A stretch of DNA of 63,797 nucleotides, counting the filler, from Sphacelaria rigidula (taxonomy: Eukaryota), in assembly GCA_964200075.2 (NCBI GenBank). It is 5 parts of 5 records of this genome, joined end to end, with 100 filler letters (N's around TTAATTAATTAA, not from the genome) between each part and the next. Parts side by side here need not be neighbours in the genome. Positions count along the whole stretch, not along the records: positions 12,781 to 25,460 come from CAXNAA020003510.1; 4 more parts are not named here. One strand, 5' to 3'. The position numbers and the translations under genes are program-made. Under the pieces are notes generated by a model. That model did no database searches and was not told the origin of the DNA. It worked only from the letters and a program-made list of their open reading frames with translations. Shown in pieces: positions 6,231 through 38,533 of this stretch (position 1 is the first letter of the stretch; every line of letters starts with the position of its first letter).

Positions 6231-6881
6231 AAACAAATTGATGTTCACCTGATTACGGTCAACATGCATCTTGCCCGGGGCAAGGACAGCTCGCGCGGAT
6301 TCATCGGGATCAGACTGATGATTTTTCGACGGGCAATTGGATGGCAGGCTACGGCGGGTTGCGGTAACGACATCGTTCCTGCCGTCCTTTTCAAAAAGCA
6401 GTTTCTTCCCACCGGGCAACGTGATTTCAGTGCCCTCTCTCGTCAATCTAACCGGCAAACGATGGTCAATCACTACACTCTGCGGGGAGAAACGGTTTAC
6501 GTCCAAACCAGGAACACCACGCACTTGATACTGACTGTTAACTTGTCTTCGCCACTACCTGTCGACAACCAGATTTTCCGAAGCCCGAAATCGACACCTT
6601 TTGACTGTTAGCCACCGTAACCGATCAGAGCAAGGCTCATAGTCATGCATGCAGTCACGCGAAGGGGTCATTTGACATTTTGCAGCATTGTCTGCAACCC
6701 AAACCTCTTGCCCCCCGTCGTCAAGAATTGGGCAGTCCCCTCGTGTACCATCTGCTGCAGACGCGTATTCGTCAGTCCCAACTGCTATAAGATCAAAGTC
6801 TACCGAGTCCTTAAAAGAGTCAGACGTACACATTGCGACCATTTTGTGGAACTCTTTCGAATGTCCTTTTCCTCCGCACAC
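6231..6881 (-). pseudogene. Copia zinc knuckle and aspartic protease (decayed)
   Basis: CGGKGH knuckle remnant; WVADNAAKCQMT is a degenerate D(S/T)GA protease motif; VPGLDVNRFS. Confidence 0.75.
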
Positions 6882-6958
6882 CTCGCAAACACGTTCTGGG
6901 CACTCAGATTTAAAATGGCCAGTTTTGCCACACGCGTGACAGGTGAGGTTTTTCTTAT

Positions 6959-8166
6959 CTACGGCTTTCTTCTTACCCGAGGAACTACCGTCATCCCCTG
7001 CTTTTCCATCTGACTGTGCATGTCCATCACTTGATCCAGCCGCGGATTTCTGCGACTTTCCGCCTCCTTTTTCTTACTCCTGTAGCCGAAACCCTTATTG
7101 CCTGCATATAGGGCATGGTTGTGATCACTACCACGCGAAGTAACCGTTTTCTTTAGAGACAGAAATTTATCCTTTACAACGGCCCGGGCCTTGTCAGTCA
7201 ACAGTGATGGTTCGAAACGCAGCTGATCTCGAATTGTGGTGTACTCAGCAGGGAGTAAATTTCGGAATTTTTCCACTATCATCTCACGGGGAATCTCCAA
7301 ACCCAACGTTACAGAACGCGAGTGCACTGACTGTAGTTGGATCCAGAACTCGTCTGTATCCTGCCTTTTTGTGTACTTCAGATTGTTGAACTCGTCTAAG
7401 ACACCCATCCTGGCTCCCAAGGTTTTGGGAGAGAACTGTTCGTCCAATGCACGCCATGCTGTGGACGATGATCGTGAATCCACAAGGATACGTCTCGCGA
7501 CCGGATCCTCGACAGTGTTGAGAAGCAAAGTATACGCAAAGCGAGCTCGCGTGATATCGTCCTGACTAACACCCAATCCTAACAGCTGCGGTTCATTAGA
7601 GGATCAACACAAAGCGGCGGGTCGCGAAACAATCCATCTCCGAAACCCCACATGAACGCATATTGCTGTACAGCACGCTTAAAAGTCGTCCATCTATAAC
7701 TTTTATTACTTGTAAACTTAGAGATATATTTTGCTTCGAATGTCCTTGGATCCACACTCATCAGTAACGACGCTGATTGTGGACTTCCCCGGTTTTGCAA
7801 ACTGCTATCGACATCTCGCATACCCCCTGTACTGGGAAAACCAAGACCAGACATCATTCCTGACGATGCGCCAGGGGCATGGGTACCTGTTGTGCCCCTG
7901 GGCGGTGCTCCCGCCCCCGCCCCTAGTCGACCCAATGCCAGATCGGCCGACCCGGTGAGTGTTGTGTCAGCCCCAAACTCTCTCGGGGCTGCTGTTTCCT
8001 GGGCTTCTAGCTGAGGCGCTTCTGTGCCCCCAGCAGTAGAAATCCCCCGAGCTCGAGACGTTTTCCATTCTTGAAAGCTGTGGTAGTCCTCTGGTGTTAT
8101 CGCCAACGCCTGAGGTGGAGCCTCGAGCTCCTCCAACACACTCCGCTCTTCTCCTGCACCGCTCAT
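6959..8166 (-). pseudogene. gag: Copia gag (frameshift near 7580)
   Basis: ORFs 7579-8166 and 6959-7576 immediately follow the 5' LTR; AWRALDEQF and LPAEY motifs are UBN2-like. Confidence 0.8.
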
Positions 8167-8226
8167 GATACAGCCTTGCTATCTAACGTACTTACCCTAC
8201 TCTTTGTTCTAAGAATCACGCTAGCG

Positions 8227-8730
8227 TGTTCGGTAGAGTCAAGAGTTATATGGCTTGAGCACCCAATGCACAACCAAAAACGTGGAAGGCAATCTCGCAT
8301 AGCGTCCGCTGTTGAAGATGAAATCACAGAAGCAGAAGTAAACAGTTGTCTTTTACTGTCCTATATTCAAGCGTCCATGGGTAGGAAAGCACACACATAC
8401 TGAACACGGTGGGGCCAGAGATGTGGAGGTGCATCTCTGTCGAGAATCTTTCTCGAACTACGGCAAATACCTCCTGTTTCATCCCGCAGAAACATACCGT
8501 ATACTACAAGATTACTCCCCGTCGTTTCCGGATCATTCGAGAACAAAAGTGAGAACAACCAACACTTTGCAGAACATTCCGAGAATCGATCCGAAGCGTC
8601 GTTCTCAGTACCATTTCTGGAAATCACCAGTACCGTTTCCCATCGGTAAATCCGCCACATTTTCCTCCGACAGTCTCGTGATAGTATCCTGGACCTTAAG
8701 TATACCATGGTTGAAATCACACGATTAACA
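8227..8730 (-). repeat. 5' LTR of inner Copia
   Basis: TG...CA termini; direct repeat of 2460-2968. Confidence 0.92.
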
Positions 8731-8735
8731 CACCC

Positions 8736-9733
8736 GCTCCCAAGGAACCGCGCCGTCTTAATTCGAAGGGGCAGCCGAAACAAGTGATCCAGTTGAGGAA
8801 CCGGCTGGCGGCGAAATGGACTTCTCCCGGGAGGATACACATGTGAGAATTTTGGTGAACAGATCTGAAGTTGATAATTGGGATCGCTGCAACGAACAAG
8901 TATCCAATATTCTATACGTGACAACTCCAGGCCCAGTAGGCAGTCTTCTTCTTCGCTTCGAGCCGGAGGGTCACGCAACACCGGATGGAAAAATTGCATG
9001 GGAGGCACTGGTCGGTAAATACGAGAACTCTTCGAAGCAACGGCGGCGTATTCTTATGCGTCAGCTAGATAACATCAAAATGTCACCTGGACAAAATCCT
9101 GAGGTGTTTCTGACCAAGATCTATGAACTGCGTGATCAGCGGGTGTACATGGGTGGACCCATTTCAGATTATAGACGCACGGACATCGTGGTGGAAGGCT
9201 TGACAGATGAATACGACAGGATAAACTATGGTGCGGAGCGTGACCCTGACTTCAGCATCTCCGACATCGAAGTAACAATGAGAAACATGTGTTCAAATCG
9301 CTTCGCACGTGAAATTGCGTTAGAGGGGGTACGCGACCGTGATTCCGCCATAATAGCGGCAACGCCGCTCGATTCATCTGCAACACCTTCAAGCTTCGCC
9401 GGAAGATGTTGTTCTTGTGGCAGACCAGGTCAACTTGTGCGTAAGTATCGTTCTGAAAGACAGGCTAGCAGCAGGAGCAGGCCTGTGAAATGGTGCAGTC
9501 TGCATCGAACAGATATACACGACAACTCCGAATGCAATAATCAAATCGGCGACGGTAGTACGTTCAAGAACAACGACAGGAACAATAACAATGACAGCAA
9601 CCACAACAATAATAGAGACAACAACGACATCGACGGACATCAACGACATGTAAACACCGTCACAGTGGATTCTGCATCTACGACAGCACCATCCAACATC
9701 CAAGTTCAAGAGATTAGCACCAACAGCGACTGA
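8736..9733 (+). pseudogene. gag: Outer element gag, C-terminal part with zinc knuckles
   Basis: DGKIAWEALVGKYE, GLTDEYD, CCSCGRPG and WCSLHRTDIHDNSEC motifs; in-frame TAA at 8759. Confidence 0.85.
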
Positions 9734-12680: not shown

Positions 12681-12780
12681 NNNNNNNNNNNNNNNNNNNN
12701 NNNNNNNNNNNNNNNNNNNNNNNNTTAATTAATTAANNNNNNNNNNNNNNNNNNNNNNNNNNNNNNNNNNNNNNNNNNNN
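12681..12780. other. Artificial contig linker (also 25461-25560, 38240-38339, 51019-51118)
   Basis: Each is N44-TTAATTAATTAA-N44, giving stops in all six frames. Confidence 0.97.
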
Positions 12781-13010
12781 TATTTGGCGTGGTGGTCTGT
12801 AAGATAGGAGTCAAGTGCCGCTTCGTGCCTTTCGACCGCATGTTTTCGATCGAAAATTACCTCGTTGAATTTTTCTCCGCGCGTCGCTAATTATAATTTT
12901 GAGTTGAAGCCTTCAAGGAACATACATGCAGTGAACCTTTGAGATCGGCCAAAACAAATTCGACCGCACTTTTTCGATCGAGAAAAAAAGGTGCCAAGAC
13001 GCGTCCTTAC
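12781..13010. repeat. Dispersed repeat; inverted copy at about 22460-22696
   Basis: tatttggcgtggtggtctgtaagata...ttttgagttgaagccttcaaggaacata matches the reverse complement of 22460-22696. Confidence 0.8.
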
Positions 13011-13179
13011 TAGACATGGGTTTTGATCAACGAGGAAAAATTGTCCCAGAAGTTTCAGCAGATGGGCACCTTCCCCTTGCCTAGACGATTAGTACGATAT
13101 GAGGATCATGGCCCGACTCGTCTGTGTCGATAAGATATGCTTTGAGAGCTTAAATCCGTTTCTAGGCTGACCCAGCTCG
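13010..13179. mobile_element. Terminal fragment of the mariner-like family
   Basis: Reverse complement of 56525-56695; ends ggctgacccagctcg. Confidence 0.7.
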
Positions 13180-13664
13180 TGTGACAGAGGCGGGTCTTCC
13201 CCACTCCGGCGCCTAACCCAAAATATTCGATATTTCGTTATGTCAAATCCTGCCTCTAACCGTGACCCAAACTCAAGCCAGAGAAAAACCGATTACCTAT
13301 TTTCGGGCGACGGGGGTGCAGTGAATGTTCTTTGGTTAGCTCAAATGGGCGCCCGAGGCAGAACACGCGCTGGGCAGGCTGCGCGTACGTTCGGCGAGCG
13401 CCTGTGGCTTCGGGCTTACAGCCTTTTCAAAGATTCGAATGTTGTGGTCGGAACTCGGAACTAAAAGCAAATATATATTCAACCATCGGATTTTGGCACC
13501 CAACCTGCTTGCCCTGGTTTCCTTCAGCGAGTGCCCCTACTTTTTTTTTTTGTCTTGGATTAGCGTTAGGGCTAAGGTTTAGGGTGAGGGTCGTGTGACC
13601 ACGGCTGATATTGTGGCGGATAGGAGTACTCGGAATAATTTGATGTGTGACAATCATTTTCTTT

Positions 13665-13890
13665 TTTCAAGGTGTCTCATTTCCGTCGTTGAAAGCGTGA
13701 GGACGTGAGAACCAAAACGAGTTCATGAGGAGTTTGAGTCGACGCGGTGCACGAGTACTGATCCAATCGATCAGCGGGACCAACATGCGAAGAGTGTACC
13801 GGGGGAAAGATAAAGTAATCTCTTGCGACCACGGGCTCGTCCATAGGAAGGGCAAGGGGGAGAAGTGTGACAAAAAAGGAAAATCAATCA
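13665..13890 (+). mobile_element. SINE family 1 body (in the intron of the 5-phosphatase gene)
   Basis: Reverse complement of 380-580. Confidence 0.6.
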
Positions 13891-13919
13891 ACCAATGACT
13901 TGCAACACTCGACTCTCAC

Positions 13920-14328
13920 CCGCGACATTCCACGTTCCACAAAAGATTCTGAGATCAAGAGTCTCGCTCGGGCTAACACGAAATACAGAGCTGCTGCCGC
14001 CGCTGCCGCCAACTTCCCCCCCTACCCCGCCATGCTTTTCCTGCGCCTTCGACCTAGTCGCCTGCTCCCATGCGGATTGCACCAACGCAGGGTCCAGAGC
14101 CTCGCACCCACAGCTGCCATCCCCATCACCACGACTGACCTCGGCTTCAACACCAGGACATGGGCTGGGGCGTCCGGTGGGGAGGGCAAAGGGCGGGGGA
14201 ATACTGCTAGCACTACTGCGAGAAGACGTAGATACTGTCGAAGGTGGGAGTTGTTTTGCTAGTTCTTCGTGGCCCTGACTCGCTGCATGTTCTGTTCGTG
14301 GTCTCGGCACTGCTGATTCTAGCTCCAT
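13920..14328 (-). CDS. Inositol polyphosphate 5-phosphatase, first coding exon (partial gene)
   Basis: ATG at 14328; low-complexity N-terminus then LRIFCGTWNVAG, the canonical start of the IPPc catalytic domain; GTGAG donor at 13919. Confidence 0.8.
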
Positions 14329-14630
14329 TGCTCTGTTGATGGTTGTTCGGTGCTGGCAGTAACGTAACAGGCAAGTAGTACGAGCTCAATTGGCAATAAT
14401 GTATGGCATTTTTGTATGCGTGGCACCTCCACATCTTGCTGAGTCCTCGAGACCGCACGAGATATGCAACAAAGCTCAAATTCCGGCAAAGCAAGACAAA
14501 GCAGCACTGTACTCGTATCCGAAGTATTCAGATAAAGACAGCCTGGTCAAATCTTGCTGTGAAAAGCAGAATCAATCACAAACAAAGAAGAAAGTCGTCT
14601 TCGTCTCGGGGAACCGCACAAACGAAGGTT

Positions 14631-14783
14631 ATGGCACGCCGCGATGGCAGCGGAGGAAAGGATGTCGCCGTTTTCGTGGCGGGGGCAGCCGCAGGAGCTG
14701 CAACTCTCTACCTGCTGCTCACACGACGAACCCGATGCAATGAGCGCACTTCCCCCAGCCCAAGCACGACGAGAGTACCTGTG
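14631..14783 (+). CDS. Probable first exon of an unknown protein with an N-terminal membrane anchor
   Basis: MARRDGSGGKDVAVFVAGAAAGAATLYLLLTRRTR...; GC-rich; GTATGT donor at 14784. Confidence 0.5.
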
Positions 14784-15245
14784 GTATGTGTATCCTTGGT
14801 TGATGTTGAGTTATTTCGGAGTGAGATGCGGAGTTGGAGAGAGCATTCACTCGTGCATGTACTCTATCTCTTTCTTGGGATGCAGCACGGTACGTCCGAG
14901 TACGCAAACATGAATGTCGTCGCAGTCTGGTCGGTTGTTCTGTCTTCTCAACTGCAACCCTAAAACTCGTCGGTTGACAACGATGATGCACGTCGGACAA
15001 ACCGACATGTGTGATACCATTTTGCATCACAGTACAGTGCAACACAGTAGTATGTGCTTGTATTCGGTGCGCTGTTCTCTACCACACCGTACACATACAC
15101 TGCACAACGCCTACAGTCGTGTGCCGCGCAATGAGCTGCAATACAGGACGAAAGACTGTTGTATTCAGGAGTTATTTGGTGTTGCCCCGCCGCAAACTGT
15201 TCCTCCACCTCCTCTATTTAATGTCGGTTAAGTACACTGGCTCCT

Positions 15246-15310
15246 GTGCGGTGCGGTGCGGTGCTCTGCTCTGCTCTGCTCTGCTCTGCTCTGCTCTGCT
15301 CTGCTCTGCT
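15246..15310. repeat. Compound pentanucleotide microsatellite (GCGGT)n(GCTCT)n
   Basis: Read directly from the sequence. Confidence 0.95.
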
Positions 15311-15759
15311 AAACTGATGTTCGCCAACTGTAGTCTAGGCCATCCTTCATTGTGCCATGTGGAGGTTAGTCGACTTTTGCAGTGCAGAAACGTTACGCGT
15401 TACACCCGCGTGGACGCATAGGTACTGTAGTTTATTGGTGCCGTACTAGTGCTCTTGTTTACAGGACAAGTAGTCCCTGTCGTTCGCTTCTTGATCAAAC
15501 ACCCCAAATCATGCGTCTGCCATGCTGTTCATGGTCAAACGTAGTGCTGTACTGTCTACGCTGACTGGGTGCTCTTGTTTTGTACAGTATTGGATGCCAG
15601 TAAATTAAACGATATGCTTTCCCTCCCGATCGAAACCCCCAGTCCTTGCCACTTGCCACTACACAAGGAGCGTCGGCTATCGGCACATTGCTACTATAAT
15701 AGCTACGGCTATACTGTACATCGGTAGGCGCTGAACCGGCAGAGCAATATCTCACACGT

Positions 15760-16525
15760 CGTACAGATCAGCTCACTATAGCTCGAGCTAGCTCTTTTAT
15801 AGGGTAGCTCCCTGGTGAGCTATGAGAGCTACATGAGCTACGCATGTTTTCCCTGCATGAGCTACCAACCCGTAGCTCATCAGCTCATATTCGTCCTGGG
15901 TGAGCTGTGGGAGCTGTATGAGCCACGCACGTTTTCCCTAGATGAGCTACCAACCCGTAGCTCATCAGCTCATACTCGCCCTGGGTGAGCTCTGAGAGCT
16001 GCATGAGCTATGCATGTTTGCCCTGGATGAGCTACCAAGCCGTAGCTCATCAGCTCATATTCCCCTGGGTGAGCTACCAACTCGTAGCTCATCAGCGCAC
16101 GTTGACCTTGTGTTGAGCTATCGGACGTAGCTCACATGTACATGTTTGACTATAAGTGAGCTACCGCCCGCAGATGAGCTAGCTCATGAGCTGTCCTACG
16201 TGTGCAATAGTTGGTGTCACTAAATCAGCTTCACACTCCCCGTTTTGAGGAGTTGAAAGCTGAAAGTTGGACAAGAGTTCACACGTGGGACAGCTCATGA
16301 GCTACCTGAAATAACTAGTCGAAGAGAACTCTCAGATCCATCGTACAAAGACCCAAAACACGTAACAGCAGCGTCCGAAAAGCCAAAGGGTTACCTTTCC
16401 GCTACACCGCGTGCTCGGCGTCCATCGCTGTTGGGAGCTAGTACGGAAATAGTGAACTAATGAGCTAGCTCATCATCCGGATCAGTACTATAATAACACT
16501 AATATCCAGGTACAGTAGCTCATAT
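15760..16525. repeat. AGCT-rich element with a ~85-bp tandem unit containing hairpins
   Basis: About 3.3 units at 15811-16095, each with GATGAGCTAC-N6-GTAGCTCATC; many dispersed GAGCTA/TAGCTC motifs. Confidence 0.85.
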
Positions 16526-16729
16526 CATCAGTACCCAAAAACGTGATGGCGCAGCCAAAAGGGAAAAGGACAAGAATTTACATTATAGCCAATTTTACGG
16601 AGACGGCGAGAGTGCAATAGGTAATATGTTGAATCGGCATCAATTCCACTTGAAAAAAGAACGCATGATCCAGATGGACTGCGCTCGCGGTCTAAGGGTA
16701 GCCTTAGATTGCGAGCGTCGCCTCGGAAC

Positions 16730-16880
16730 AGGAACAGTTTCACTGGCTGATAGGTCAGGGACATCCGGGGACTTCCAGGGGAAGGGGAGTTGACAGGGTG
16801 GTGGGTGTCTGTTCGCAGAACAGCCGAAAAGCTCACCAAATCAACCATGTGTGTTTGAAAGTTTCCCAAGGAAAATTATA
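16730..16880. repeat. Dispersed repeat; inverted copy at about 33295-33450
   Basis: cagccgaaaagctcaccaa is the reverse complement of ttggtgagcttttcggctg, with flanking similarity. Confidence 0.7.
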
Positions 16881-17199
16881 CAGTCTTACGCCGAAAGAAA
16901 AAAAACATTATTCGGAACAGAATCCGACATCTTTTCGCCCCGATACGCACGCACACACAGCGTAACCCCAGATTCAGCAAGATGAGGTTGTTGCCTATGG
17001 TCTACATGACATGCGGGCGAAGTGTCAGCGCGTAAAAGTGCTGGAAGCGCGTGCACGGCCGTGCCTCCTGAATTGAGCACCTCTTCAGACAATAGATAGA
17101 CTTGTACCGCACAGAATGTCATGATCCGGAACATCATGATCCGGAATGTGTGCCAATACAGATCGATGTTTGTTTGACGGCGCAGAAACTGTGTAGTAG

Positions 17200-17545
17200 G
17201 TCATGAAGTGGAAGTGAGCGCACCCGCGTGTCAACATATGCATTCAGCGATGTCTCACGCAGTCTGGGCTGCAGAGACGCCGTTTTGAGGGCGTACGGAC
17301 GACATAACCCAAAATCCGTGTTCGCTCTGTGCTTTATGCGCGCCACCCATCACGTGCCGCCGAAGAGCATACGTGTTGTGTGTGTGTTGTGCTGCACCTC
17401 TGTGCCAAGTTTGAAGCCTGATGGTGACGACACGGTGGAGAAATCCACAAAGTAACGGTTCAAAGGTGGAGAATGCAGTCAAATGCAGTACTGAACCGTC
17501 CAAAGATACATGAGCTGCGGTTACACCGCATATCACAGTTGCGGT
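17200..17545. repeat. Left arm of a long imperfect inverted repeat (partner 25140-25460)
   Basis: ggaagtgagcgc...catatgcattca...gccgttttgagggc...aaccgtccaaagataca...gttacaccgcata matches the reverse complement of 25140-25460. Confidence 0.75.
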
Positions 17546-18228
17546 GAGTTACCATCGTCCTATTTACACCCCTTCATTTACACCCAGTACGATGGCAACT
17601 AGTGCAGGGTCCGCGAACGTGTCGGGTCTTGGGGGCGATAGCTCACCCTCCGATGGTTTCTCGTACCAATGGTGTGTACAGCAAGAAGCACTGCGGGCTG
17701 AGGTATCGCGCAGATGCGAAACTGCACCCCAGTGTGGGTGTGTGTCCACGCGAAATATTCAGTCGATACCGTCACGAAGGTCGGGTTCAAGGAACGCCTC
17801 TTTGTCGAATTGCTTCGTTGTACCCACGGAAAATGTCTCTGTTTGGGCACTCACCGCGCGTAAGAAAGTATCTCGGTGGAAATCACCTGTTTCATCATCC
17901 CAAATTATCCCGAAGATGATGTTTAGGCTGAAGTCGACACCTCGGAACGATCGTATCTCTTCGGTGATACTGTTCCGCAGCGATTTTTCCGTGCAAGGGT
18001 CATGTCACGGTTCGAATCGTGGCCGACTTGCTATCTCAGCAAGAAGCGGTCGACACAATAGCATACATGAACAAAACAAAAAACGATCTTGCTTTTAACA
18101 AAAAAAAAAGTGTTTGGAACAACATGATCGTTTGTTACTGAAATTGCAACTCCGGCCGTTAAGGAAACTGCCGCGTACACGGTACAAGCTGGTTCAGGTT
18201 GAAAACCCAAAATTTAGTCCCCGGCGAT

Positions 18229-18494
18229 TCCTCACGCCGTTTTTCCGAGTTAGACCACGAAATTTTGCACAGTTTTTCTCGAAGGCATTACCTAAAACTC
18301 GAAGAATGGGCTTTTTGAGGGGGGGGTTGGGGTCGAGATAGCCGGGATCCGCTACCTCCTCCGGTCAAGTTGGTCGACCGCGACCATGGATGAATATTCA
18401 ACAAAAAAAAAGCCCAATCTTCGAGTCTTGAGTAATGCCTCCGAGAACATGTGTGCAAAATTTCGTAGTCTAACTCGCCAAAACAACGTGAGGA
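18229..18494. repeat. Foldback/MITE-like inverted repeat with ~88-bp arms
   Basis: 18229-18317 is an imperfect reverse complement of 18404-18494. Confidence 0.7.
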
Positions 18495-18694
18495 AATTCG
18501 AAAACGTGCGCTGAAGTATCAAGAAGTCTGCGTGCCCCCCTGATTACTTCGTTGAATAAATAGAATCGCCCTTTTTGAGGGTTGCTATTACGGTACAAGA
18601 CCCAGCCGATTCAGTTTTTCGACTCGAGCAACACATGTTCCTTGGGATACCACCTAGACCTTAGATGTCAAACTTTTGAGGTTGAGGCATTTTG

Positions 18695-19255
18695 CACCGG
18701 TTTCCGGGGGTCTTTATGCTGGGACCCCCGGAAGCCGGTAGAGATCAGAGAAACTTTGAAACCGTGCCAAGAATACAATTTTTCCATTCGGAGCATCAAT
18801 ACCTTCGGAATTGCCAAGTCTGAGGATGATCTGAGCTTCTCTATAACAGATAAAAGGGAAATCGTCACAAGGCTCCGTGGGTCTTTCGTACGCATCATGA
18901 GTGGAAATCTGACGACGCCAAAGCTCCACATCACCGAAACATTACGGTTTCGGGCAAATTCGACCCCGTTGGAACCGTTTTCAAATCTGTTTCTCCCGTT
19001 AGATTCCCAAGCTGATGACGGTTACTACGATTTGAATCATATGGAGATTCGGTGGAAATTGGGCTTGGAACTCGTGTTTTCAATTTCGAAACAATTTAAA
19101 AGGCGCAGACTGGTCGAGATACTTTTGTCCACAGCGCCACCGCTATAGCGTCAAACAAAAATCCGGCTCTGTCACCCTTTTCGTCTATTCATTGCGGTCA
19201 GTATGATACCATGTATGCGACTATCGGGTGCGTATTGCGGAGGGCGTTTGCTGAT
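18695..19255. repeat. Dispersed repeat; direct copy at about 57745-58305
   Basis: Long colinear match (gaggatgatctgagctt...ctccacatcaccgaaacattacggtttcggg...cattgcggtcagtatgataccatgtatgcgact). Confidence 0.85.
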
Positions 19256-21279
19256 GACAGAATTTTGCGTTTTCAATCTGAATCAGCTTATACGCAAAGG
19301 TGCTCTGGTGTTCATTTTTCTTGTTACGTGACCGCCCGTGTCATGGACAGTGCGGGTTCCGCCACAAACAAAGCCTTGCGGGGGTTCTCGAGGTCCTTTG
19401 CAACGGTGTCGACGAATAAAGCTTGTAATTCGGAGGTGCCAACATTCGCCCAATCCTCTCGTCGGCTGAAAATCGTCAGCGAAATGTCAACAGCCAACCA
19501 CATGAGTGTTTGACACGTCACAAATGGCCTCGGGGTCAAGGCGTAACGGTAGGACTTCCGGCGGGCTTTGTGAAGAACGAAACATAACATTCGCCGGGTA
19601 TTGCAGTTCCGCACTAACTTTAACACGTACATGACCAACCCCGGCGAGAAACAGTCATAGCATATTTTTTCGACGTGATACCAGCCCCGTTATAGTCGGG
19701 GCCTTCGCTGCATACATCCCCGAAATGCACACCGAAGACAGAATGAAGCCCAAAAAATCCGATGATATGACATCGCAAGAGGTCCTGTCAATGATACGTA
19801 TTGGGGGGGAAGGAGAAGGCATGACTCTCGCAATCTAGTGCCGGACGTTTTTGCTATTCCCAGAGAGTAACATATTTGAGGAGCCTGCACAAGTACCGGT
19901 ATCCCTTGCAAAACGCACAGTGTCCGCAGAAAGAACACCTGCCCTCAACACTCAATATCCTGATGGTATGACCACTGCATCCTTCGCAGCGGCGGGCGGC
20001 CCAGGCCGCAAAATCGTTCGGGAAAATGTCGACCGCCCACATCAATACGCACGATGCGCCGGGATCGTTCGATACCCAACAAATCCTCGGACTTTCTATG
20101 GGAAAAAAAACGAGAGGAAATCGCGCCCGTTGACCCATCCACGTCGGCCGCCGCCGCGGGCACATCTGCAGAAATTGCACGGGGATGTCAAGCGCATAAT
20201 GTGACAATCGATCCTTCATCGAGCCCACATTACATCCTACGGTATACATGGTCTCCATCCATCCGCGATGCAGCCCGTGGCAGCCTCACGGTCTGGGTTC
20301 GCCGCTGTTGGTGCACCTAAGGCGAAATGTAGCGCACACGATGAATAGACGCAGAGAGGGTCAGCGAGCCTGAGTCGTGTGCCTTTCGACCCCCGGGGGA
20401 GGGGGGTATACTTCACGATACCACTGGAAATGGGACGGCGTCGCCGCGCAGCATGACTGATCGGCATAAATCGGATTCAGCATGCTCGCAATACTCCCAG
20501 AAGGTCCGGTTTCCCGTTGCTCACTCACCGACAGTTAGCTTCCAATGTCATGTACAACAGACACATTGTGCTCCCCTTATCCAACAAAATCACAGATTGC
20601 AACATTAAAATTATTGCAACCCCACCGCAGCCCCATCCGCCCAACATCATATCAAACAGAAGAAGAATTCTTCGGGATTGCGGTTGATGCACGGGCCTGG
20701 GGATCATAATAAACGAGGGGGGACAGAGGCATATGACTGTTGACGCGGACCTGCCTCGCCGAAGCTCTTGGAATCATACCTTTGCGTTGACCACTCTCTC
20801 GCACATCATCGTTCATCCGGTCCAAGTATAATTCCGGCACGTTCTCGCCCGTGTCTCCCCACGAAGCATTGGTTGACTATCTCACATTAGCTGATTGCAA
20901 CAATCCAGCCCGTGGTCAGGAGCAGCAAAAATAGAACAGAATAATAAAAAATACAAGAAAAAAAATAGAAGGGAACAGAGAAACGACAGAAGCAACGGCC
21001 TCAGCATGTGACTCCTCCGATGACGTGCTGCTACGGCACTCACAGTCTCCACCCGAGGTCGCCTCTGCTTCGTCGCCACTGTCACCCCCGGGATCCACTT
21101 CAGACACTTTCTACGATAGCCCCCCCCAAAAAACCAGCCCAAAAGTGTCACGAAAAAAATCGCCATACAGCGCCTGATGTTTGGGTTCAGGCTGGATAAA
21201 GTACCTCATATTGGCAACATTGGCGAGAATGAACCCAAGCGTGGGAATTCCCAGCTGCTCGTTNNNNNNNNNNGTGAAG

Positions 21280-24200
21280 ATTTTGCCTCCCAAAACCATG
21301 CATTTCTTTGGGAGGGGCTATCGTATGAAATGTCTTCATTGGCCATCACCAATTCCAACCCTTCGCTAACCGGTACGTTTTGCGCGTCGATATCCGGATC
21401 GCACCGCCCGTTGCACCCACACAGTATGGGATGGCAATCCTTTCCAAGCTTCGTGCATTTGCAGTTGCGTTCGCACCTGTGTTTCTCGGCCGCCAATGGG
21501 TTACACCGGCACAGAAGACGATTGATCCTCCCTGTGGGGTTGATGCGCCCGTGTTCCGATAAGTTGACAACATTGGCCTTCGTCATGGGCGTTTGCGCGT
21601 TTCGAGACGTCGTACTCCAACCGTGATTGTTTAGATCCACGTGCGCCATGGACTCCTCCATACCCCCCATCCAACATTCCAATACAGCTACAGCTCGCTG
21701 CGCTTGGAAGCGAAGCGCATCCGCGGGCGGCACAAGGTCTGTTGGCCTCCTGCCACCCAATTTTCACCTCAAAAACCTCCCCCAGTGGTTGTGGTTGTCC
21801 TTCGTCAGAGAGCTCATCTATCGGCCTGGGATCCCCATGACGCATGTCCATGATCACAGAGCTGCGAAAGACACGGAACGATGATGAAGGCAGGCAGGAT
21901 TGCGCGATCGAGTGCGATTGTCAACATCACCCATGTGCCTACCGATCCGCCGTTGCGCGAATCACTCATGTTTTTCGTTGATATCTCAGGGGTGGGGGGG
22001 GGGTGGGGTTTGAGAGATGGGCGAGAGTTTTGCCCAGCGATGGAAGCTCACATAGTCGGGGAACCGCTGTGAATAAGTACCTGTGCGATGGAAGAGCATG
22101 ATGCCAACACAACAAGTCATCGTAAGTGTTGGGAAAGCACGATTTTTGGGCCAGAGCCTCATTTTGGTGCTTGGCATCCTCCTGTATGCAGAGTCAGAAA
22201 GCTATGCTGTCTGTATGTCGCATTGCCCGCTTCTTTTCCACATCGCGCCTGCATGCTGTGCGAATCACACACTCTATGTAGACAGGACGGGCACGCTTGT
22301 ACAGTCTGTACTGTCTATTGAATATAAGTAAAGAAGTACCGCTTCACGAATTTCGCTTAGCCTTTTCGATTCACAGCTCCAAGTTCGCTCGGACCCAAAC
22401 ATAGCAAAACGAACTGAATCAGTTCCGCCGCACGAACTCGTTCGAGTCGAAAATGGTCTGATTAGGGCGTGTCTTCGCATTTTTTTTTCGATCGAAAAAG
22501 TGCGGTCGATTTTCTTTGCAGGTCTCATGGGTCCACCGAATTTATGTTCCTTGAAGGCTTCAACTCAAAATTATAATTAGCAGCGCGCGGAGAAAAATGC
22601 AACGAGGTAAAAAAACAATCGTTTTCGATCGAAAACATGCGGTCGAAAGACGAAGCGGCACTTGACTCTTATCTTACAGACCACCACGCCAAATAACACC
22701 TGTTCACAGGACCATGCAAACTCCATCCAACTAATTCTCTGAGAGAGCTACCACCCCAACCCTGCAGCATAGAGCACGAGTTGAGCACAGGGATAGATAC
22801 CTTGCAGTAGCTGGATATGCTTTTTTTTTTTTTGTTGGCGAAAACTTGCACATGTTCCCTCATGGTAGGAATCAGCGACGGAACTGCGTGGTACGGTGGG
22901 CAACCGAGTTGCGCGCACGCTCATGGACACTGCAGGCAGTACAAAGCTGCAGGCTGCTGAAGTCCTCTTCACGTCGCACTGTAAGGAGAGAGAACTGATG
23001 GTCCTGGGCTCTCTGCACTGCACGTTGCCCGCTTCTCCTTTATGCCCTCCTAAACGAAACACGCACACACGTACTCAAGACACCCTGCTTGCAACCAGTG
23101 CAGACAGTACGGACTGCCTGTACTGTACACGAGTGACCATGTGCCGTTTCACGAGTTTCACTGTCTTTTTTGGATCGAAAGCTCGAAAATCCATCTGGAC
23201 CCAACTGCATTAAAACAAGAAAATTTCGCTCAGATCGATTCCACCGCCCCATTTTTTCGATCAAAAAAACAAATGCTAACAGACCCTAAGACACGGCCTC
23301 ATGGTACACCTCTACAGACTGCACGGCACGGGCGCTGCAAATGACACGGGCGGATCGGGGTGCAAGACGTCTTGCAACCCAATACCGACGGTGTCGGCGT
23401 GCGTGGTCACCCTCCCTGTGGGTCAATCAACGTGCCCTAAATGTGTCCTTGTCCACTACAGTGTACAGCACTGTAGCCAACAGCACGCTACGTAACCCTT
23501 TCGTGTATACCGACACTCGCATACATTGTTTTACGGTGCAGTAAGTGCAGCACAACAGGTACTGTGCTTCAACTACAGCACAATAACTTCATCTGCACAA
23601 AATACAGTACAGTAAATACAGAAGCGTGCAGTTGTGCATGTATGTGTCCCATTTATTCTGGGCGCCAGTCTGCACCTTTCGGTATATGTGGATGCATGAC
23701 AGTGTTTATATAAGAACTTACCAAGAACCTCGCACAATTGTCAAACTTCACGCGGTCCAACTTGACCACCAGGGGTGCCTGCGGATCATCGTGTCGTGCA
23801 TCTTGCGCGCCAAACCATTTGACGCAATTCTTTGTCTCATGGAATCTACACATCATGGACAACACCATCTCCGTGCTGTAAACCCTGATGGACCTGCGTG
23901 GACGCCACGCATCGACTACCAGTGTCTCCGCTGCATACGGGTGCTCGGCAACAGTATCGTTACCACCCAACGCGGTACTTTGTCACTTGAACGTCACCTT
24001 TTCGACCATAAACCAGCACCGACGCTCCTGCCTTCATCCAAGCTTCGCAGTGGTGTCGCGTGTCGCACCGGCACTCCTTGGTGTGGAGCTCCCCGGTCGT
24101 GTGGTACCCTTATTTTGCGGGTGGTTCCACCTGAAGCCTTATACAATGACTCTTGTATGCGGGCTTTTACCTTCTTGTAATTTTTGTTGCCTTCGGCGTA

Positions 24201-24780
24201 AGATTGTATAAGCCAGAAACGAGGCCCAAAACGAGCGGATCAACCATTCTGACTCATCACGGCTACCAAATTGTCACTTTGTTCCCCTACAGATGGACTA
24301 CTGATGGACTATCATGCTGTCTAGCCGTATTTCTCGTGTTTGTCAGGACAATTCAGCGCGTGTGATACAGTCTTGCGCGAAAAAAAATCCAATACCGGGA
24401 TGCCCGCATAGAAGAACCATTTGACAATCATTCGGCTGATATCAGCCGTGAAGTAGACACCGTTCACACGAGCGGCGGGCCCGACACGAGGGAGTACCGA
24501 CCCAGCGGGTGGCATCGGTGGCAAGCTTCGCTCAAGGCGGTATGGTCGGTGTAGATTTCTGGCTGAAATAGTAATGATTTCCCGCGTGGGGTGGTGTGAA
24601 TAGTGGTGCTCTTCATTGGTGCAACTCCTACACAATGCAATGCCGATAGGTGGCGACCACGCTGAGGGCACCAGGCCAAAAGGACGCGTGCCGGCTAGTG
24701 CATGATGTATTCAATCCACGTGAAGAAGAATTAGGTCATCGGCTTTAACGAGGATTTTACACGACACACTTTTGTGCATG
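21280..24780 (-). pseudogene. Decayed, intron-containing AcademX-like transposase (XPG/PIN-like nuclease + Cys8 zinc finger region)
   Basis: Motifs in order: WASFL...NK; EHPYAAETLVV...SIRVYSTEMVL; LVPPADALRFQAQRAVAVLECW...DLNNHGW; LLCRC...CERNCKCTKLGKDC...CGCNGRC. GTAAGT donor at about 23718 and TTTCGCAG acceptor at about 21862. Confidence 0.6.
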
Positions 24781-25139
24781 CGTGCCTTGCGTAGCCAATT
24801 GCGCCGCCTTCAAAACTGAAAACTCCACGTGAATTACAGTATGGAAATGCGTGATGTGCTGCACCCCCGTTTCTCATGTGTGACTACTATACAAAGCTAC
24901 TGTGTGTACCGTACTCTGTAGTGCAATCGTGTACAGTATTCTGTCGCCTGCAGTCCAATACGGCGTGCACTGGGAACACGACACTAGATGCCCTGTTAAT
25001 ACCGACATGATTGACGGCACATCGGTTGGCGGGGCGATGTGGTGAAGCCAAATCCACGGTGCTAGCAAGTACGGTTGTACGCTTATCCCCATCTCTCCTG
25101 TGCTGCCGCAGGGGTGCAGTGGTTACGCCAGTATGGTTT

Positions 25140-25460
25140 CGCACGAGGATTATGCGGCGTAACTGCAGCTTGTGTATCTTTCGACGGTTGGCCGGTATTA
25201 TTTTTGATCGTGAAGTTCTCGACCGCCGCTGTAGGCACCAACGTGAAACTTGGTGCATTAGTCGGGCTCACCACAGCCAGTGTATGTACCGAAGCACAGC
25301 CCCTTTCCTTCCCCGACCAAATTAAAGAAAGCGAAATCCGATTATGGGCGATACCGTCTGTATGCCCTCAAAACGGCCATCTCGCGGCCTAGATTCTGTG
25401 CACCGTGAGTGAATGCATATGTGGACATGGTAGCGCACTCACTTCCGCATCATGACGACC
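25140..25460. repeat. Right arm of the long imperfect inverted repeat (truncated by contig end)
   Basis: Reverse complement of 17200-17545. Confidence 0.75.
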
Positions 25461-25640
25461 NNNNNNNNNNNNNNNNNNNNNNNNNNNNNNNNNNNNNNNN
25501 NNNNTTAATTAATTAANNNNNNNNNNNNNNNNNNNNNNNNNNNNNNNNNNNNNNNNNNNNAGTCAACTTATTATACTAAAACCAAGTAATTTCCTGACGA
25601 ATCATTATTTGTCCTAACTGTGAATATAAACCCAATGTAA

Positions 25641-26102
25641 CAAGGTTATGTCTTGTAGGGTATGGGTATATTCTGCAGGGTATGAGATCCCTTACACAAC
25701 TTACAGAACTTGTCGGGTACGGTATGGGAGGCTTACGGAAAAACCGTACCGGCAATCGGATATTTCTTTAAAAGCATACCCACGCTCCGGTTACGGGTAT
25801 GCATTCTGTACAGAACTCACAGAACTGTCGGGTAAGGGTATGGGAGGCTTACAGAATTCACAAAAACTGTCGGGTAGGGTATGGAGGTTGCACAGAAAGT
25901 CATACCCGCAACCGGGTATATCATCAAGAGCATACCCGTGCCCTCCGGTAACGGTCTGTGAGTCGCAAAGAGATCACAGAAGTAACGGGTAAGGGTATGA
26001 AAGTATTACAGAAGTCAGAGAACTGTCGGGTACGGTAAATACCCGTGAAAATGCCCCGGGTTTACAAAAAACCGTATCCTTATCCTTCAGAACACGACCT
26101 TG
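25641..26102. mobile_element. MITE with CAAGG...CCTTG termini built from ACAGAACTCACAGAACTGTCGGGTA motifs
   Basis: caaggttatgtcttgtaggg versus ccttcagaacacgaccttg; reiterated internal motif. Confidence 0.7.
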
Positions 26103-26749
26103 GCATTATCATCACTCCTGTTGTGGTACCTACGTTACTACAACAGTGGCGAAATACAGATGACACTTCACGAAAACTCTGAACGGCTTCATGGGGTTGA
26201 TGGAGAAAGACTACACAAACAATCGCGGTAGTATACAGCATGTGCACGGGATCATCAGCATCTATCGGCTTCACGTACACTCACAGAGAGTACATGAAGG
26301 AGCATTCACGGCTGCCCGTTCTCTGGAAGCCCTTCCGCACACGACAAAATCGCCGACGGGCCTTGACGACTTTCGGTGGCAGCTCATACTCTGTGCTATG
26401 CACGTCGATAACGGCCTGGGGTTAAATGATCACGACACAACCCCTGGTGGCGCAGATGAACCACCCGCGCTCGAGCCACTACTCGAGTCTAGGGGTGATC
26501 CATCCTGACGTTCTGCGGTGTTGCTCATGTTTCGTGTTTTCACTCAACCGTACCTCGTATCCCGTCAGATTCCAAACTTGAGAACTTTCCAACATTGAAT
26601 TCTTGTTGGAGTGCAGTTTTGAATCAAGGAGTTGCGTGAGTTGATCGATTGGAGGTACATGTTCAGGTCATGAGGTTTTGACTGGATTGAACCTATATCC
26701 GTACCTCCCCAGGGTATATACCTGTGCTCACACCTGCAATGTGGTATAT

Positions 26750-27592
26750 CTTTACCGGTATGAGAGGCTTACAGAGCTCACAGAACTGTCGGGTACCGGT
26801 ACTGGATGAAAGTCGTACAGAAATTACAGAAATTTTCGGGTACGGTGTGGGAGGCCTACAGAAAAACCGTACCGGCCATCGGGTATTTATTCAAGAGCAT
26901 ACCCGCGCTCCTGGTACGGGTAAAATTTCTGTACAGAACTCACAGAACTGTCGGGTAAGCGTATGGAGGTTGCACAGAAAACCGTAATGGGGTATCTCAT
27001 AAGAGCATACCCGTGCCCGCCGGTAACGGTACGGGAGTCTTGCAGAGATTGACAGAAGTATTGGGCAAGGGTATGAAAGTCTTACAGAGATTGCAGGACT
27101 GTCGGGTACCGGTATGCAAATCTTACAGATGTCACGAAACTGTCGGGTACGGTGAATACCCGGGAAAATACCCCAGGTATACAGAAAACGATACCTCACA
27201 GAACACAACCTTGGAAAACCGTATCAAGGGCATACCCGTGCTCGGGGTGCGGGTATAGATTCTGTACAGAACTCACAGAGCTGTTGGGTAAGGTTATGGG
27301 AGGTGTACAGAAGTCACAGAAACTGTCGGGTAGGGGGTGAAGGTTGCACAGAAAACCGTACCCGCAACCGGCTATTTTATCAAGGGCATACTTTTGCCCC
27401 CGGTAACCGTACGGGAGGCGTACAGAACTCACATAACTATCGAGTAAGTGTATGGAAGTCTCACAGCGTTTATAGAACTGTTGGGTACCGGTATGAGAGT
27501 CTTATAAAAAATACAGAACTGTCGGGAATGGTAAACACCCGGAAAAATACCCCGGGTATACAGAAAACCGTACCCCGAAGAACCCAACCTTG
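26750..27592. mobile_element. Two further partial tandem copies of the same MITE
   Basis: Same motif array; ends agaacacaaccttgg (about 27213) and agaacccaaccttgg (about 27592). Confidence 0.7.
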
Positions 27593-27891
27593 GAAGTATA
27601 GTGTATGCAATGTCAGCAAATTGAAGGTGTTGCGGGACATAATGTACTTGATTAGAATAGCGGGCGGAGCCCCCAAAACAAACCAGACTTCTCACACGCA
27701 GATGGGGGTGACCTAATGTGAATTAAATTATGGGCGATTATGACCGAGCGTTCAAACTCGGCACCCACCCAAAATTGAGGACCTGTTCAAAATCAGGCGA
27801 AGGACCAAAACGTGGGACACATGTCTTGTTTCACTATACCGCAGCAGAAACACTTCCACGCCCTCTCTTATGTCCTGGAGCTGTCACTGTT

Positions 27892-32674: not shown

Positions 32675-34363
32675 AAGAAATAGTCAGCGTGCTATCGCTC
32701 CTCACTGAACGCAGTTTACTGTATGTTGCTGATACCTCCGCGTAGTGCTTTTTTTTCACCATCGTTTTATTGCATTTTTTTTCATTTGCTCTGTACTTTC
32801 CTCTTCTTTTCCTTCTTTTTTTTGTTTTAGGTCGGCCATTTCTTTCTTGTGTTGACTTTTTTTTCATTACTTTTTTTTTTCTTGTTACGCCTTGGTCTGC
32901 TATGTCGTTCTGTTCGACCTTTTTTTTTTTTCTGTTCCTTCTTTTCTTCAGAGCGTATTTCAGTTTCGTTTTTGTTGGGTACGTCTACCATGAGACCACG
33001 GCTGGACCCCTGGAGGGTCAGTTAAAGTGCGACAATCGTGCTCCACAACAACACTACAGGCAGTGTGAAACTATGCTGGCAACACATGAGGGGTCAGGCA
33101 GGCGGCATACACCTCGAGCAGAGGAAAAAACACGTTGTATGTGCCCATTTTATCTCTGGTTGAATTGTCAGTACCAAAATGAGAAATATGACTTGATAGC
33201 GAAGTAGTCCGTCCACCTGTAGGTGAACAAAGAGATCATTTGGATAGCCCGTGATGGGTCAGAATGGTCGCTCCTATTGGGCCTTGTTCCTGGCTTGAAA
33301 TTTTCCCTGGGGAACTTCGAAACACCAAGGGTTGACTTGGTGAGCTTTTCGGCTGTCCTGCAGACAGGTCCCAACCCCCCTGTTGAACCATCGCCCCCTG
33401 GAAACCCTCAGATGTCCCTGGACTGTCAGCCGGTGAAACTGCTCCGAGCCGACGCTCGTTGTCCAAGGGTTAAGTCTGTATTTTTCGAACGCGGTTGGAC
33501 CAATTGCCGTGACCCTTGTCGCACTAGTTGAACGCGACACAGGCTCCAGGTGTACCAATCGGCGGCACGTTCGGACCGTGCTACAAAATGAACGAAGCGA
33601 ATGACGATTACAGGTGAACACCGTCGATGCATACGGCTTCCCGGCAGCCCACACTGCGTGCACCGCTCGTGAACGCATATTACGACACGCTGGTGCACTA
33701 GCTTCCACATCATGAGCAGCTGGGCGGCTGCTGCGCTGGCGAACAAACATCGATCTGTCCTGGGACAGCCACTGAAAAACGACTATAGCTCCTTCACATG
33801 TATCCTGTGGGAGTGCCCAGTCCGGGATACGCGGCCGTTCGCGCGCTGTCGGCGCTGCGCGGCGGTGGAACTTTGGCCACATGTCGTGTGAAGCACAGTC
33901 AACAACCTCATGTCGCTGAATCTGGGGTTGCGCGTTGCAGCAGTGCACAACGAGGTGAAGAAATGTTGAACTTTTGATGGTCGGCTTTACTTTGATTGCA
34001 GTCTGTTATCTTCTTTTCATGGGGCGGCTCGTCTTCCCCCTATCTACGAGCATAGCCCACTCGTGATGCCTGCGCTTTCACATGACTTTATCCTTCTTGG
34101 ATCCTTTCCCCCCCCTGGCCTGAGACAACCACCCCCCCGACTCGAATGCCCCAAACAACGCTGCGCCTGGAAATGATGCATCCACCAGTAGCAATCAGGC
34201 CTCCCCTCCCGCCGAACCTCCCATGCTTCCTGGCACTGCTTTCAGAGTGTGATGAGAAAGTGGTGCTTGACTGTGCCCCCGGTGTTGTAATCCCGTCCGT
34301 GTCCCGTGTGCCCTCGTTTTGAGTGGTGAGTACCCCTCAGATACAATGGACAATGTCAAGTTA

Positions 34364-37834: not shown

Positions 37835-38533
37835 CAACCGGTGCGCCCCGGTGGTGTAGCTGATGCAGATGACTACAATTACGGAGGTCACAAGTTCAAA
37901 TCCCGACAGAAACATGAACGGAACGTTTCTGTTTCAGTTGAAAAGGGTGATTTCGGCCATTTCGCACGAGCTTCTGGACCACAAACGCAACCTGGTCTTT
38001 CTTGCCTCAGTGTGGGTTGGGTTTTTCTCCAAGCGTTATTCATTTAGAGCACTTTTCCGCTTCCCTGGAGCCCTAGTTGCAGAAAAACATCACGAGTGCC
38101 TTCTTTTTCCAACTACGGAAGAACCATCACCATCCGGAAATGAGTCGAGAAATAAGCATTGCAGCCCAGCCCCGGTTCGCCCCCCCCCTCCATCTCAGCC
38201 TGGTCCGGCGAGAACCCGGCGTGCTCCGTCCCGGCTTCGNNNNNNNNNNNNNNNNNNNNNNNNNNNNNNNNNNNNNNNNNNNNTTAATTAATTAANNNNN
38301 NNNNNNNNNNNNNNNNNNNNNNNNNNNNNNNNNNNNNNNCACCTGAGCTTTTCCGATGTACAACCAGCCGGGTACTCATCAGGCTGTGTGTGTGGGGGGG
38401 GGGGGGGTGCAATGGCAACGTGAGGACACTCGAAGCTGGGGCGAGATGGGGTTATGGTTTCACCAGGAACACGTGTGTTCTATGATCAACCACTTTCCGC
38501 TGCATTTGTGACCCACGCTGTTAGGCGCAGACC

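What the first reader, a model, noticed from the sequence alone, without database searches (positions are those of the whole stretch)
21280..24780. AcademX-like (XPG nuclease + Cys8) transposase relic with spliceosomal introns in a probable stramenopile
Seen: on the minus strand, across frameshifts and GT/AG-bounded gaps, the motifs WASFL...NK (about 24220), EHPYAAETLVV...SIRVYSTEMVL (23950-23860), LVPPADALRFQAQRAVAVLECW...DLNNHGW (21740-21620) and an 8-Cys cluster (about 21515-21395) occur in order. Known: AcademX transposases carry an XPG/PIN-like nuclease (HEEADTR...V.S.DTDV), then LPPT.DAL..H..RA...W...GW, then a C-terminal Cys8 finger; as I recall they are described mainly from animals and red algae. 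Inference: this is a divergent, intron-bearing Academ lineage in a brown alga. The DDE core is not visible, so this copy would be an internally deleted derivative.
Basis: partly seen in the sequence, partly recalled or inferred. Interest (0 to 1): 0.72.

Follow-up and report, generated by a model that had tools for sequence, protein, structure and literature searches.

The report
Brown-algal AcademX transposon, deleted copy
This stretch is a dead, internally deleted copy of a cut-and-paste jumping gene whose fuller relatives in the same seaweed genome encode a spliced transposase fused to a predicted XPG-type nuclease, so it likely extends the AcademX group, which I found no paper reporting in brown algae, to that lineage.

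Summary
The element spans 16881-24206 (minus strand), with short CAGT inverted ends and a 4-bp TATA duplication; removing it restores an intact host repeat. Only 21787-20808 is coding: the last nuclease helix, a 9-Cys CXC-like cluster and an acidic tail, joined to the element's 5' region by a deletion at about 21787. 'WASFL' is flanking DNA, 'NK' is the inverted repeat, and 'EHPY...' is non-coding. The gaps are a deletion and nested MITEs, not shown introns. Fuller copies in the same genome encode one protein of at least 1633 aa: DDE transposase, XPG/EXO1-like fold (Z 15.2) and CXC tail. Two GT-AG introns are spliced in three probable RNA runs of one study. 20 of 33 short relatives have exact 4-bp duplications. 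Homologues occur in Ectocarpus, Nemacystus and Sphacelaria and form one clade apart from the animal proteins. A curated Ectocarpus TE catalogue lists no Academ. The defining paper and Repbase could not be read, so novelty is provisional. No earlier scan note on brown-algal Academ was found. Verdict: new member of a known kind, moderate interest.

The parts
16881..24206 (-). Whole non-autonomous AcademX-type element, 7326 bp including nested insertions
   Evidence: Many copies begin at 16881 and at about 24206; empty-site test
24177..24206 (-).
16881..16910 (+). 3' terminal inverted repeat (CAGTCTTACGCCGAA...)
   Evidence: this 16-nt end motif occurs 72 times in the genome against 0 for the reversed control
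24207..24210 (.). Target-site duplication TATA, 5' side
16877..16880 (.). Target-site duplication TATA, 3' side
   Evidence: a contig of run X5 joins 16867 to 24211 over 13 letters, as an empty paralogous site would
21336..21787 (-). Coding remnant: last helix of the nuclease fold (LVPPADAL...W), GW motif and Cys cluster; 81% identical to residues 1430-1581 of the spliced reference copy; a stop just upstream at 21764-21766
21401..21511 (-). Nine-cysteine CXC-like cluster (C-x-C-x9-C-x3-C-x-C-x6-C-x4-C-x-C-x3-C)
   Evidence: sequence; family profiles hit the LIN54 CXC domain at E=5e-3 and 3e-4
20808..21102 (-). Acidic C-terminal tail of the transposase, split by a 134-bp insertion at 20869-21002
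21785..21790 (-). Internal deletion junction joining the element's 5' region to the C-terminal tail; shared with sister copy G000:C22756
21790..24176 (-). 5' region of the element (likely promoter/5'-UTR); no coding signal in four tested frames, including the EHPY segment at 23710-23982
22166..23298 (.). Nested repeat block; core is an 829-bp high-copy MITE at 22462-23290 with 45-bp inverted ends
21103..21335 (.). Nested 233-bp inverted-repeat insertion (holds a 10-N gap) that interrupts the tail
20317..20779 (-). GT-AG intron downstream of the coding tail (3' UTR); both sites are kept in this copy, splicing was seen on the reference copy
   Evidence: joint 609-1099 on L016 in runs X1 and X2; sites
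18182..19291 (.). Nested 1.1-kb insertion, absent from sister copies; another copy at window 57737-58343
24207..24367 (.).
24368..25460 (+). Separate about 1.4-kb MITE with related CAGTC ends, cut by the contig end; not part of the element

Best explanation
The locus is a 7.3-kb internally deleted, non-autonomous copy of a multi-copy DNA transposon family, inserted in a host repeat with a 4-bp duplication, and its fuller relatives encode one spliced protein with a DDE transposase, a predicted XPG/EXO1-like 5' nuclease and a CXC-like cysteine finger, which most likely makes the family a brown-algal branch of AcademX. Shown: ends, TSD, copy number, deletion, domain order, retained acidic motifs, splicing of two coding introns. 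Inferred mechanism: the DDE domain of an autonomous copy would bind the short CAGT ends, excise the element and join it to a target cut with a 4-nt stagger. The fused 5' nuclease would trim flaps or overhangs on the excised ends or the strand-transfer product, and the CXC finger would help bind DNA. This copy and the 0.7-1.4-kb MITEs with like ends were likely moved in trans; this copy then collected at least four nested insertions and cannot make a transposase.
For: 148 matches to the tail and 88 to the transposase N-terminal part in the genome (lower bounds). TIR, TATA TSD and empty-site restoration. Exact 4-bp TSD in 20 of 33 short relatives with both ends found, 3 bp in 4; chance is about 1 in 256 each. 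Joining the exons of L016 at the RNA-shown joints gives a stop-free 1633-aa frame with D159, D315, GDFH and E528 aligned to animal homologues. 21 of 25 long homologues scanned hit DUF6589, 5 of 25 TCR/CXC; three are named from Antedon, Owenia and Branchiostoma. The predicted nuclease part matches XRN1 (Z 15.4), EXO1 (15.2), FEN1 (12.9) and XPG (12.6); first unrelated row Z 6.4. The predicted DDE part of a homologue matches P-element (Z 10.2, rmsd 6.5, 365 aligned) and Hermes (8.7) transposases. AcademX is stated to make 3-4-bp TSDs and carry a nuclease (passage of PMC10045372).
Against: No Repbase Academ sequence and not the defining paper could be consulted, so the name rests on one passage plus recall. 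L016's own frames hit no Pfam family; the Nemacystus homologue hits DUF6589 at 22 bits, under the cut-off of 27. Identity to animal proteins is only 21-24%. Only 2 of 10 long (4.5 kb or more) end pairs show a TSD. No full-length autonomous copy with both ends was recovered. The role of the nuclease is untested. The DDE fold was predicted on a homologue (P0016, 34% identical), not on the genome's own protein.
Confidence: 0.9

Rival explanations
1. One reading: one intron-split XPG-Cys gene runs from 24780 to 21280 in this copy, with WASFL and EHPY as divergent nuclease exons.
For: The motifs can be read in order, the EHPY segment travels with the tail in many copies, and a GT follows it at about 23720.
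Against: WASFL is outside the TIR and TSD. EHPY has a stop as majority state and no codon signal. Neither frame hits the family profile at E up to 10. The true XPG motifs lie elsewhere, in frames of fuller copies.
Confidence: 0.02
2. The family works like AcademX but is a separate, unnamed DUF6589-related lineage or superfamily.
For: Long branch and only 21-24% identity to animal proteins; short TIRs; a roughly 300-residue low-confidence insert inside the nuclease; no curated reference to compare with.
Against: Same domain order, same motifs in all three domains and the same 3-4-bp TSD as stated for AcademX.
Confidence: 0.07
3. The coding piece is a host XPG/CXC gene fragment captured by an unrelated non-autonomous element (Pack-type capture).
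For: The copy lacks its own transposase and many derivatives carry only the tail.
Against: The tail and the following 3' DNA are collinear with copies that carry the DDE gene; the same end motif lies upstream of a fuller relative (L075) and downstream of others; derivatives break at many different points in the same protein, as nested deletions do.
Confidence: 0.01

Closest known systems
AcademX lineage of the Academ superfamily (Kapitonov and Jurka 2010; Kojima 2020, Mob DNA 11:15). Neither paper was readable; traits from a passage of PMC10045372 and from recall
   Same: One protein with a DDE transposase followed by an XPG-type nuclease and a C-terminal Cys cluster; terminal inverted repeats; 3-4-bp TSD.
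   Different: Host is a brown alga (recalled range: animals and the red alga Chondrus). Two spliced coding introns and one 3'-UTR intron. A long low-complexity insert inside the nuclease. GEGE in place of the animal HEE(A/S/G)D motif. Nine Cys. Inverted ends only about 16-30 bp. The window copy itself is deleted.
AcademH (helicase-bearing Academ of animals and fungi; passages in PMC10045372 and PMC10799480)
   Same: DUF6589-related DDE transposase (the link of DUF6589 to Academ is recalled and echoed by earlier scan notes, not from a paper read here).
   Different: No helicase in the spliced protein or its scanned homologues; TSD 4 bp, not 9-10 bp.
Ectocarpus siliculosus CBJ31386.1 ('similar to solute carrier family 35, member F4') and Nemacystus decipiens g15026.t1
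   Same: 30-41% identical over the DDE and nuclease parts, same motifs.
   Different: Annotated as a transporter-like or unnamed protein, not as a transposase; the CBJ31386.1 model lacks the Cys tail in the alignment.
FEN1/XPG/EXO1/XRN1 5' nucleases and LIN54/MSL2 CXC domains (solved structures)
   Same: Fold of the nuclease part (Z 12-15) with the acidic motifs in place; Cys spacing like CXC.
   Different: Here fused to a transposase inside a mobile element; activity untested.

Membership tests
AcademX | DDE transposase of the Academ (DUF6589-related) type | tested here: met
   Met for the family, absent from the window copy. D159/D315/GDFH/E528 align with DUF6589-positive proteins; homologue folds like P/hAT transposases. 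L016 itself has no Pfam hit.
AcademX | XPG-type nuclease in the same protein, after the transposase | tested here: met
   Family: fold Z 15.2 to EXO1, 12.6 to XPG; profile hit to EXO1 E=6e-5; one transcript contig bridges both domains. The window copy keeps only the last helix.
AcademX | C-terminal cysteine cluster (Cys8, recalled) | tested here: met
   Nine Cys at 21511-21401; LIN54 CXC hit E=3e-4; 7 of 39 aligned proteins hit Pfam TCR at E up to 0.05.
AcademX | 3- or 4-bp target-site duplication (PMC10045372) | tested here: met
   TATA here, confirmed by the empty site; 24 of 33 short relatives exact 3 or 4 bp; only 2 of 10 long pairs.
AcademX | Terminal inverted repeats | tested here: met
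   CA(G/A)T ends, 83% over 30 bp; 72 and 196 genome hits against 0 and 2 for reversed controls.
AcademX | Similarity to or clustering with curated Repbase AcademX proteins | not testable with these tools
   No Repbase library; Kojima 2020 not held. Unnamed-function animal proteins of the same architecture stood in.
AcademH | Superfamily-2 (RecQ-like) helicase | tested here: not met
   No helicase family in Pfam scans of the reference frames or 39 aligned proteins; the nuclease stands in its place. The extreme 5' part of an autonomous copy was not fully seen.
AcademH | 9- or 10-bp TSD | tested here: not met
   No pair among 43 examined matches more than 5 of 9 or 5 of 10 flank letters.
Autonomous element (this copy) | Intact transposase frame | tested here: not met
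   Only residues about 1430-1633 remain, after a stop and broken by two insertions.

The most novel reading that the evidence does not exclude
Brown algae carry an old, diversified, unrecognised clade of AcademX transposons that has been missed or mis-annotated (as a solute carrier in Ectocarpus). In this genome at least one near-intact copy is still transcribed and correctly spliced, keeps every DDE and nuclease acidic motif, and drives several MITE families with 4-bp duplications. That would give the first tractable stramenopile system to test what the XPG nuclease does in transposition.
Probability: 0.45. Interest if true: 0.58.

Novelty: new member of a known kind. Interest (0 to 1): 0.4.

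Why it matters
Academ is among the least studied DNA-transposon superfamilies, and the job of the AcademX nuclease is only guessed from TSD length (PMC10045372). A brown-algal clade would add a eukaryotic supergroup to its range as I recall it. It would give a superfamily to several MITE families that would otherwise be filed as unknown or, by their CAGT ends, as Tc1/mariner, and it corrects a transporter annotation in Ectocarpus. A spliced, stop-free transcript provides a candidate cDNA for assays. The window copy itself is an ordinary dead derivative.

Tried and rejected
Pfam on eight window frames: nothing significant; on six frames of fuller copies: best FYVE E=0.007, under cut-off. Word-indexed search with the tail for longer proteins: 0 of 90 candidates. 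ESM Atlas: tail top score 0.83, MSL2-CXC at 0.77, leads only; 3' frame 17762-18004 nothing. Second gene in the 3' region: frames 19857-20285 and 19327-19689 are non-coding by codon test (all copies with stops). First idea that the 5' end lay beyond the contig edge (inverted match 17200-17326 with 25330-25456): rejected, that match is to a separate MITE. Idea that CAGTG-ended elements make no TSD (0 of 6): rejected, 8 of 13 short CAGTG elements have exact 4-bp TSDs. No holder was on record as RNA; X1-X4 are guessed RNA, all one study. PDB sequence search gave no transposase hit for the DDE part; only the fold search did. The tree is the quick IQ-TREE run, midpoint-rooted, 73 rows of 300-650 aa, shorter hits left out. 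Literature: nine searches found no paper placing Academ in brown algae or stramenopiles. Kojima 2020 and Yuan and Wessler 2011 are not held. Earlier scan notes: none on this genome or sequence.

Full report
Setting. The window is a string of contigs of about 12.7 kb joined by N-TTAATTAATTAA-N spacers. The finding lies in G000:C3510, window 12781-25460, of a 244-Mb assembly in 27,214 contigs. The closest named proteins to the family come from brown algae: Sphacelaria rigidula (93% identical), Nemacystus decipiens and Ectocarpus species. The host is therefore taken to be a brown alga.

Observation. Only the last block is protein. The frame 21763-21209 holds LVPPADAL...W, the GW motif and a cluster of nine cysteines (21511-21401). 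It has no Pfam hit but 148 matches in the own genome (150 of 225 candidates scored). A profile built from the C-terminal 750 residues of 22 non-brown-algal homologues hits it at E=2e-12; the best of 500 shuffles scored 2.9 bits against 44, and the next best of 1754 window frames had E=1.3. In 31 copies the substitution rates by codon position are 0.18/0.14/0.28. The EHPY segment is repeated (39 matches) but gives 0.185/0.187/0.213, stops in 11 of 15 copies and a majority stop at the Y, so it is non-coding element DNA.

Boundaries. Copies of the downstream DNA end sharply at 16881 and copies of the upstream DNA at 24206. The two ends are inverted repeats (83% over 30 bp), each flanked by TATA. 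Removing the element and one TATA gives a sequence that aligns without a gap across the junction to two other copies of a host repeat (75% over 316 nt at window 33161-33458; 72% over 264 nt in G000:C8397). A contig of run X5 shows the same empty-site form. WASFL lies in that host repeat and NK in the 5' inverted repeat. The DNA from 24368 to the contig end is a separate MITE of about 1.4 kb with related ends.

Internal structure. At about 21787 the element's 5' region is joined directly to the last part of the transposase gene. Sister copy C22756 shares the junction (91% over 255 nt), while fuller copies match only one side at a time. The window keeps residues 1430-1581 and 1580-1632 of the reference protein; 15 other copies tested break at various points from residue 735 to 1533, and one of the 16 spans the whole protein. 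Nested insertions lie at 22166-23298 (829-bp MITE core), 21103-21335, 20869-21002 and 18182-19291. These and the deletion account for the gaps read as introns.

The autonomous gene. Copies C16536 (L016) and C20591 (L017) carry three long frames in a row. Laying runs X1-X3 (guessed RNA, one study) and X5 on L016 shows joints skipping 424 and 644 nt with GT-AG ends in all three of X1-X3 and not in X5. One 4014-nt contig, about 1% different from L016, bridges both. A third GT-AG joint of 489 nt starts 20 nt after the stop codon in X1 and X2. Joined at these sites the gene gives 1633 codons without a stop, open at the 5' end where the contig stops. Splice sites sit at the same codons in copies 52-93% identical, are mutated in some, and two distant families (31-32%) read through without the second intron. 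Both sites of the 3' intron are kept in the window at 20779 and 20317.

Domains. The N-terminal half has D159 (IDNCD), D315 (AGDDET), GDFH and E528 (LDERQE), aligned with homologues at 21-29% identity. A search of 1.84 billion representatives gave 366 hits at E up to 0.001. Of 25 long hits scanned, 21 match DUF6589 and 5 match TCR/CXC. Three of ten looked up are named, from a crinoid, an annelid and a lancelet. A model of homologue P0016 (pLDDT 86; 34% identical to L016) matches P-element (Z 10.2) and Hermes (Z 8.7) transposases and integrases. The C-terminal half keeps the acidic motifs AIDL, VCYD, GEGE, SVDTD and GCDF. Its model (residues 166-461 disordered) matches XRN1, EXO1, FEN1, XPG and GEN1 at Z 11.8-15.4, with the first unrelated row at 6.4. 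Family profiles also hit EXO1 and the LIN54 CXC domain by sequence. The helix kept in the window is the last one of this fold; no catalytic residue remains. In a quick tree of the DDE region, L016 and the named brown-algal proteins fall in an 18-row clade (SH-aLRT 99) apart from the animal rows; most rows are unnamed and the root is midpoint only.

Target-site duplications. I fetched stretches around end motifs and counted only those where both ends were found: 11 of 20, 18 of 40, plus pairs in earlier loci. Of 33 elements under 4 kb, 20 have an exact 4-bp duplication, 4 an exact 3-bp one, 1 a 5-bp one, 4 match at 3 of 4 and 4 have none (one right end, L124, is doubtful). Of 10 pairs of 4.5 kb or more only 2 do, the window and L106. 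This shortfall is unexplained; chimeric assembly, recombination between copies or mis-paired ends are possible.

Mechanism. Shown: a multi-copy TIR element with 4-bp TSDs and a spliced DDE-nuclease-CXC gene. Inferred: cut-and-paste by the DDE domain; trimming of 5' flaps or overhangs by the nuclease (from FEN1/EXO1 chemistry, established knowledge, and the TSD argument in PMC10045372); DNA binding by the CXC finger; mobilisation in trans of this copy and of 0.7-1.4-kb MITEs with like ends.

Comparison and novelty. A passage of PMC10045372 states that AcademX makes 3-4-bp TSDs and carries a nuclease, AcademH 9-10 bp and a helicase (passages seen). The family meets every AcademX trait I could test and fails both AcademH traits. 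The wider definition and host range (animals, Chondrus, Puccinia) are recalled from Kojima 2020, which is not held. The curated Ectocarpus TE study PMC12477816 has no 'Academ' in its main text or five readable supplements; I read part 1 of 2 of section 5 and the whole 168-row annotation table. It curated mainly families over about 100 kb, and its FASTA libraries could not be read, so an unclassified model may hide there. An Ectocarpus homologue is annotated as a solute carrier. Other papers seen as passages only: PMC10799480, PMC3627910, PMC4455052, PMC12210899. Nine searches found no report of Academ in brown algae. Repbase could not be checked.

Verdict. Observation partly confirmed, interpretation partly supported. 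The locus is a dead deletion derivative. Its family is most likely a brown-algal AcademX clade with a spliced, apparently intact transcript. New member of a known kind; interest 0.4.

Noticed in passing
window 12681-12780, 25461-25560, 38240-38339, 51019-51118: Artificial 100-bp spacers (N run, TTAATTAATTAA, N run) join five unrelated contigs; synteny across them is meaningless.
   Followed up: yes
L076-L080, L026, L128, L146 (G000 copies of 4.6-7.7 kb): Eight of ten long end pairs have no target-site duplication although short relatives mostly do; three of them are 93% identical to one another.
   Followed up: partly
window 17762-18004 (-): An 81-codon frame in the element's 3' region has no majority stop and a dip at codon position 2 across 19 copies, but many frameshifts and no Atlas match; possibly a decayed captured or second gene.
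   Followed up: partly
protein P0055: A DUF6589-XPG-Cys protein labelled Prasinocladus malaysianus (green alga); if not contamination, AcademX-like elements also occur in chlorophytes.
   Followed up: no
L016 1186-1659 and 100-609: Summed contig depth in the probable RNA runs is far higher over the Cys tail and 3' exon than over the transposase; contigs cannot rank expression, but deleted derivatives may be widely transcribed.
   Followed up: no
window 13888-14385 (-): Frame with LDLRIFCGTWNVAG, recalled as an inositol polyphosphate 5-phosphatase motif; likely a host exon 2.5 kb from the element; no Pfam hit at E 0.001.
   Followed up: partly
window 5172-9733: Copia-type retrotransposon remains: integrase (E=1e-4) and two gag frames on opposite strands, with a 300-bp direct repeat at 2599 and 8362.
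   Followed up: no
window 25693-27595: Array of degenerate 41-46-bp units in higher-order blocks, just past the spacer on the next contig.
   Followed up: no
proteins P0097 and P0105; model of P0016 residues 45-168: Two homologues carry an N-terminal OTU-like protease domain; a brown-algal-clade homologue has a winged-helix-like domain before the DDE core.
   Followed up: no
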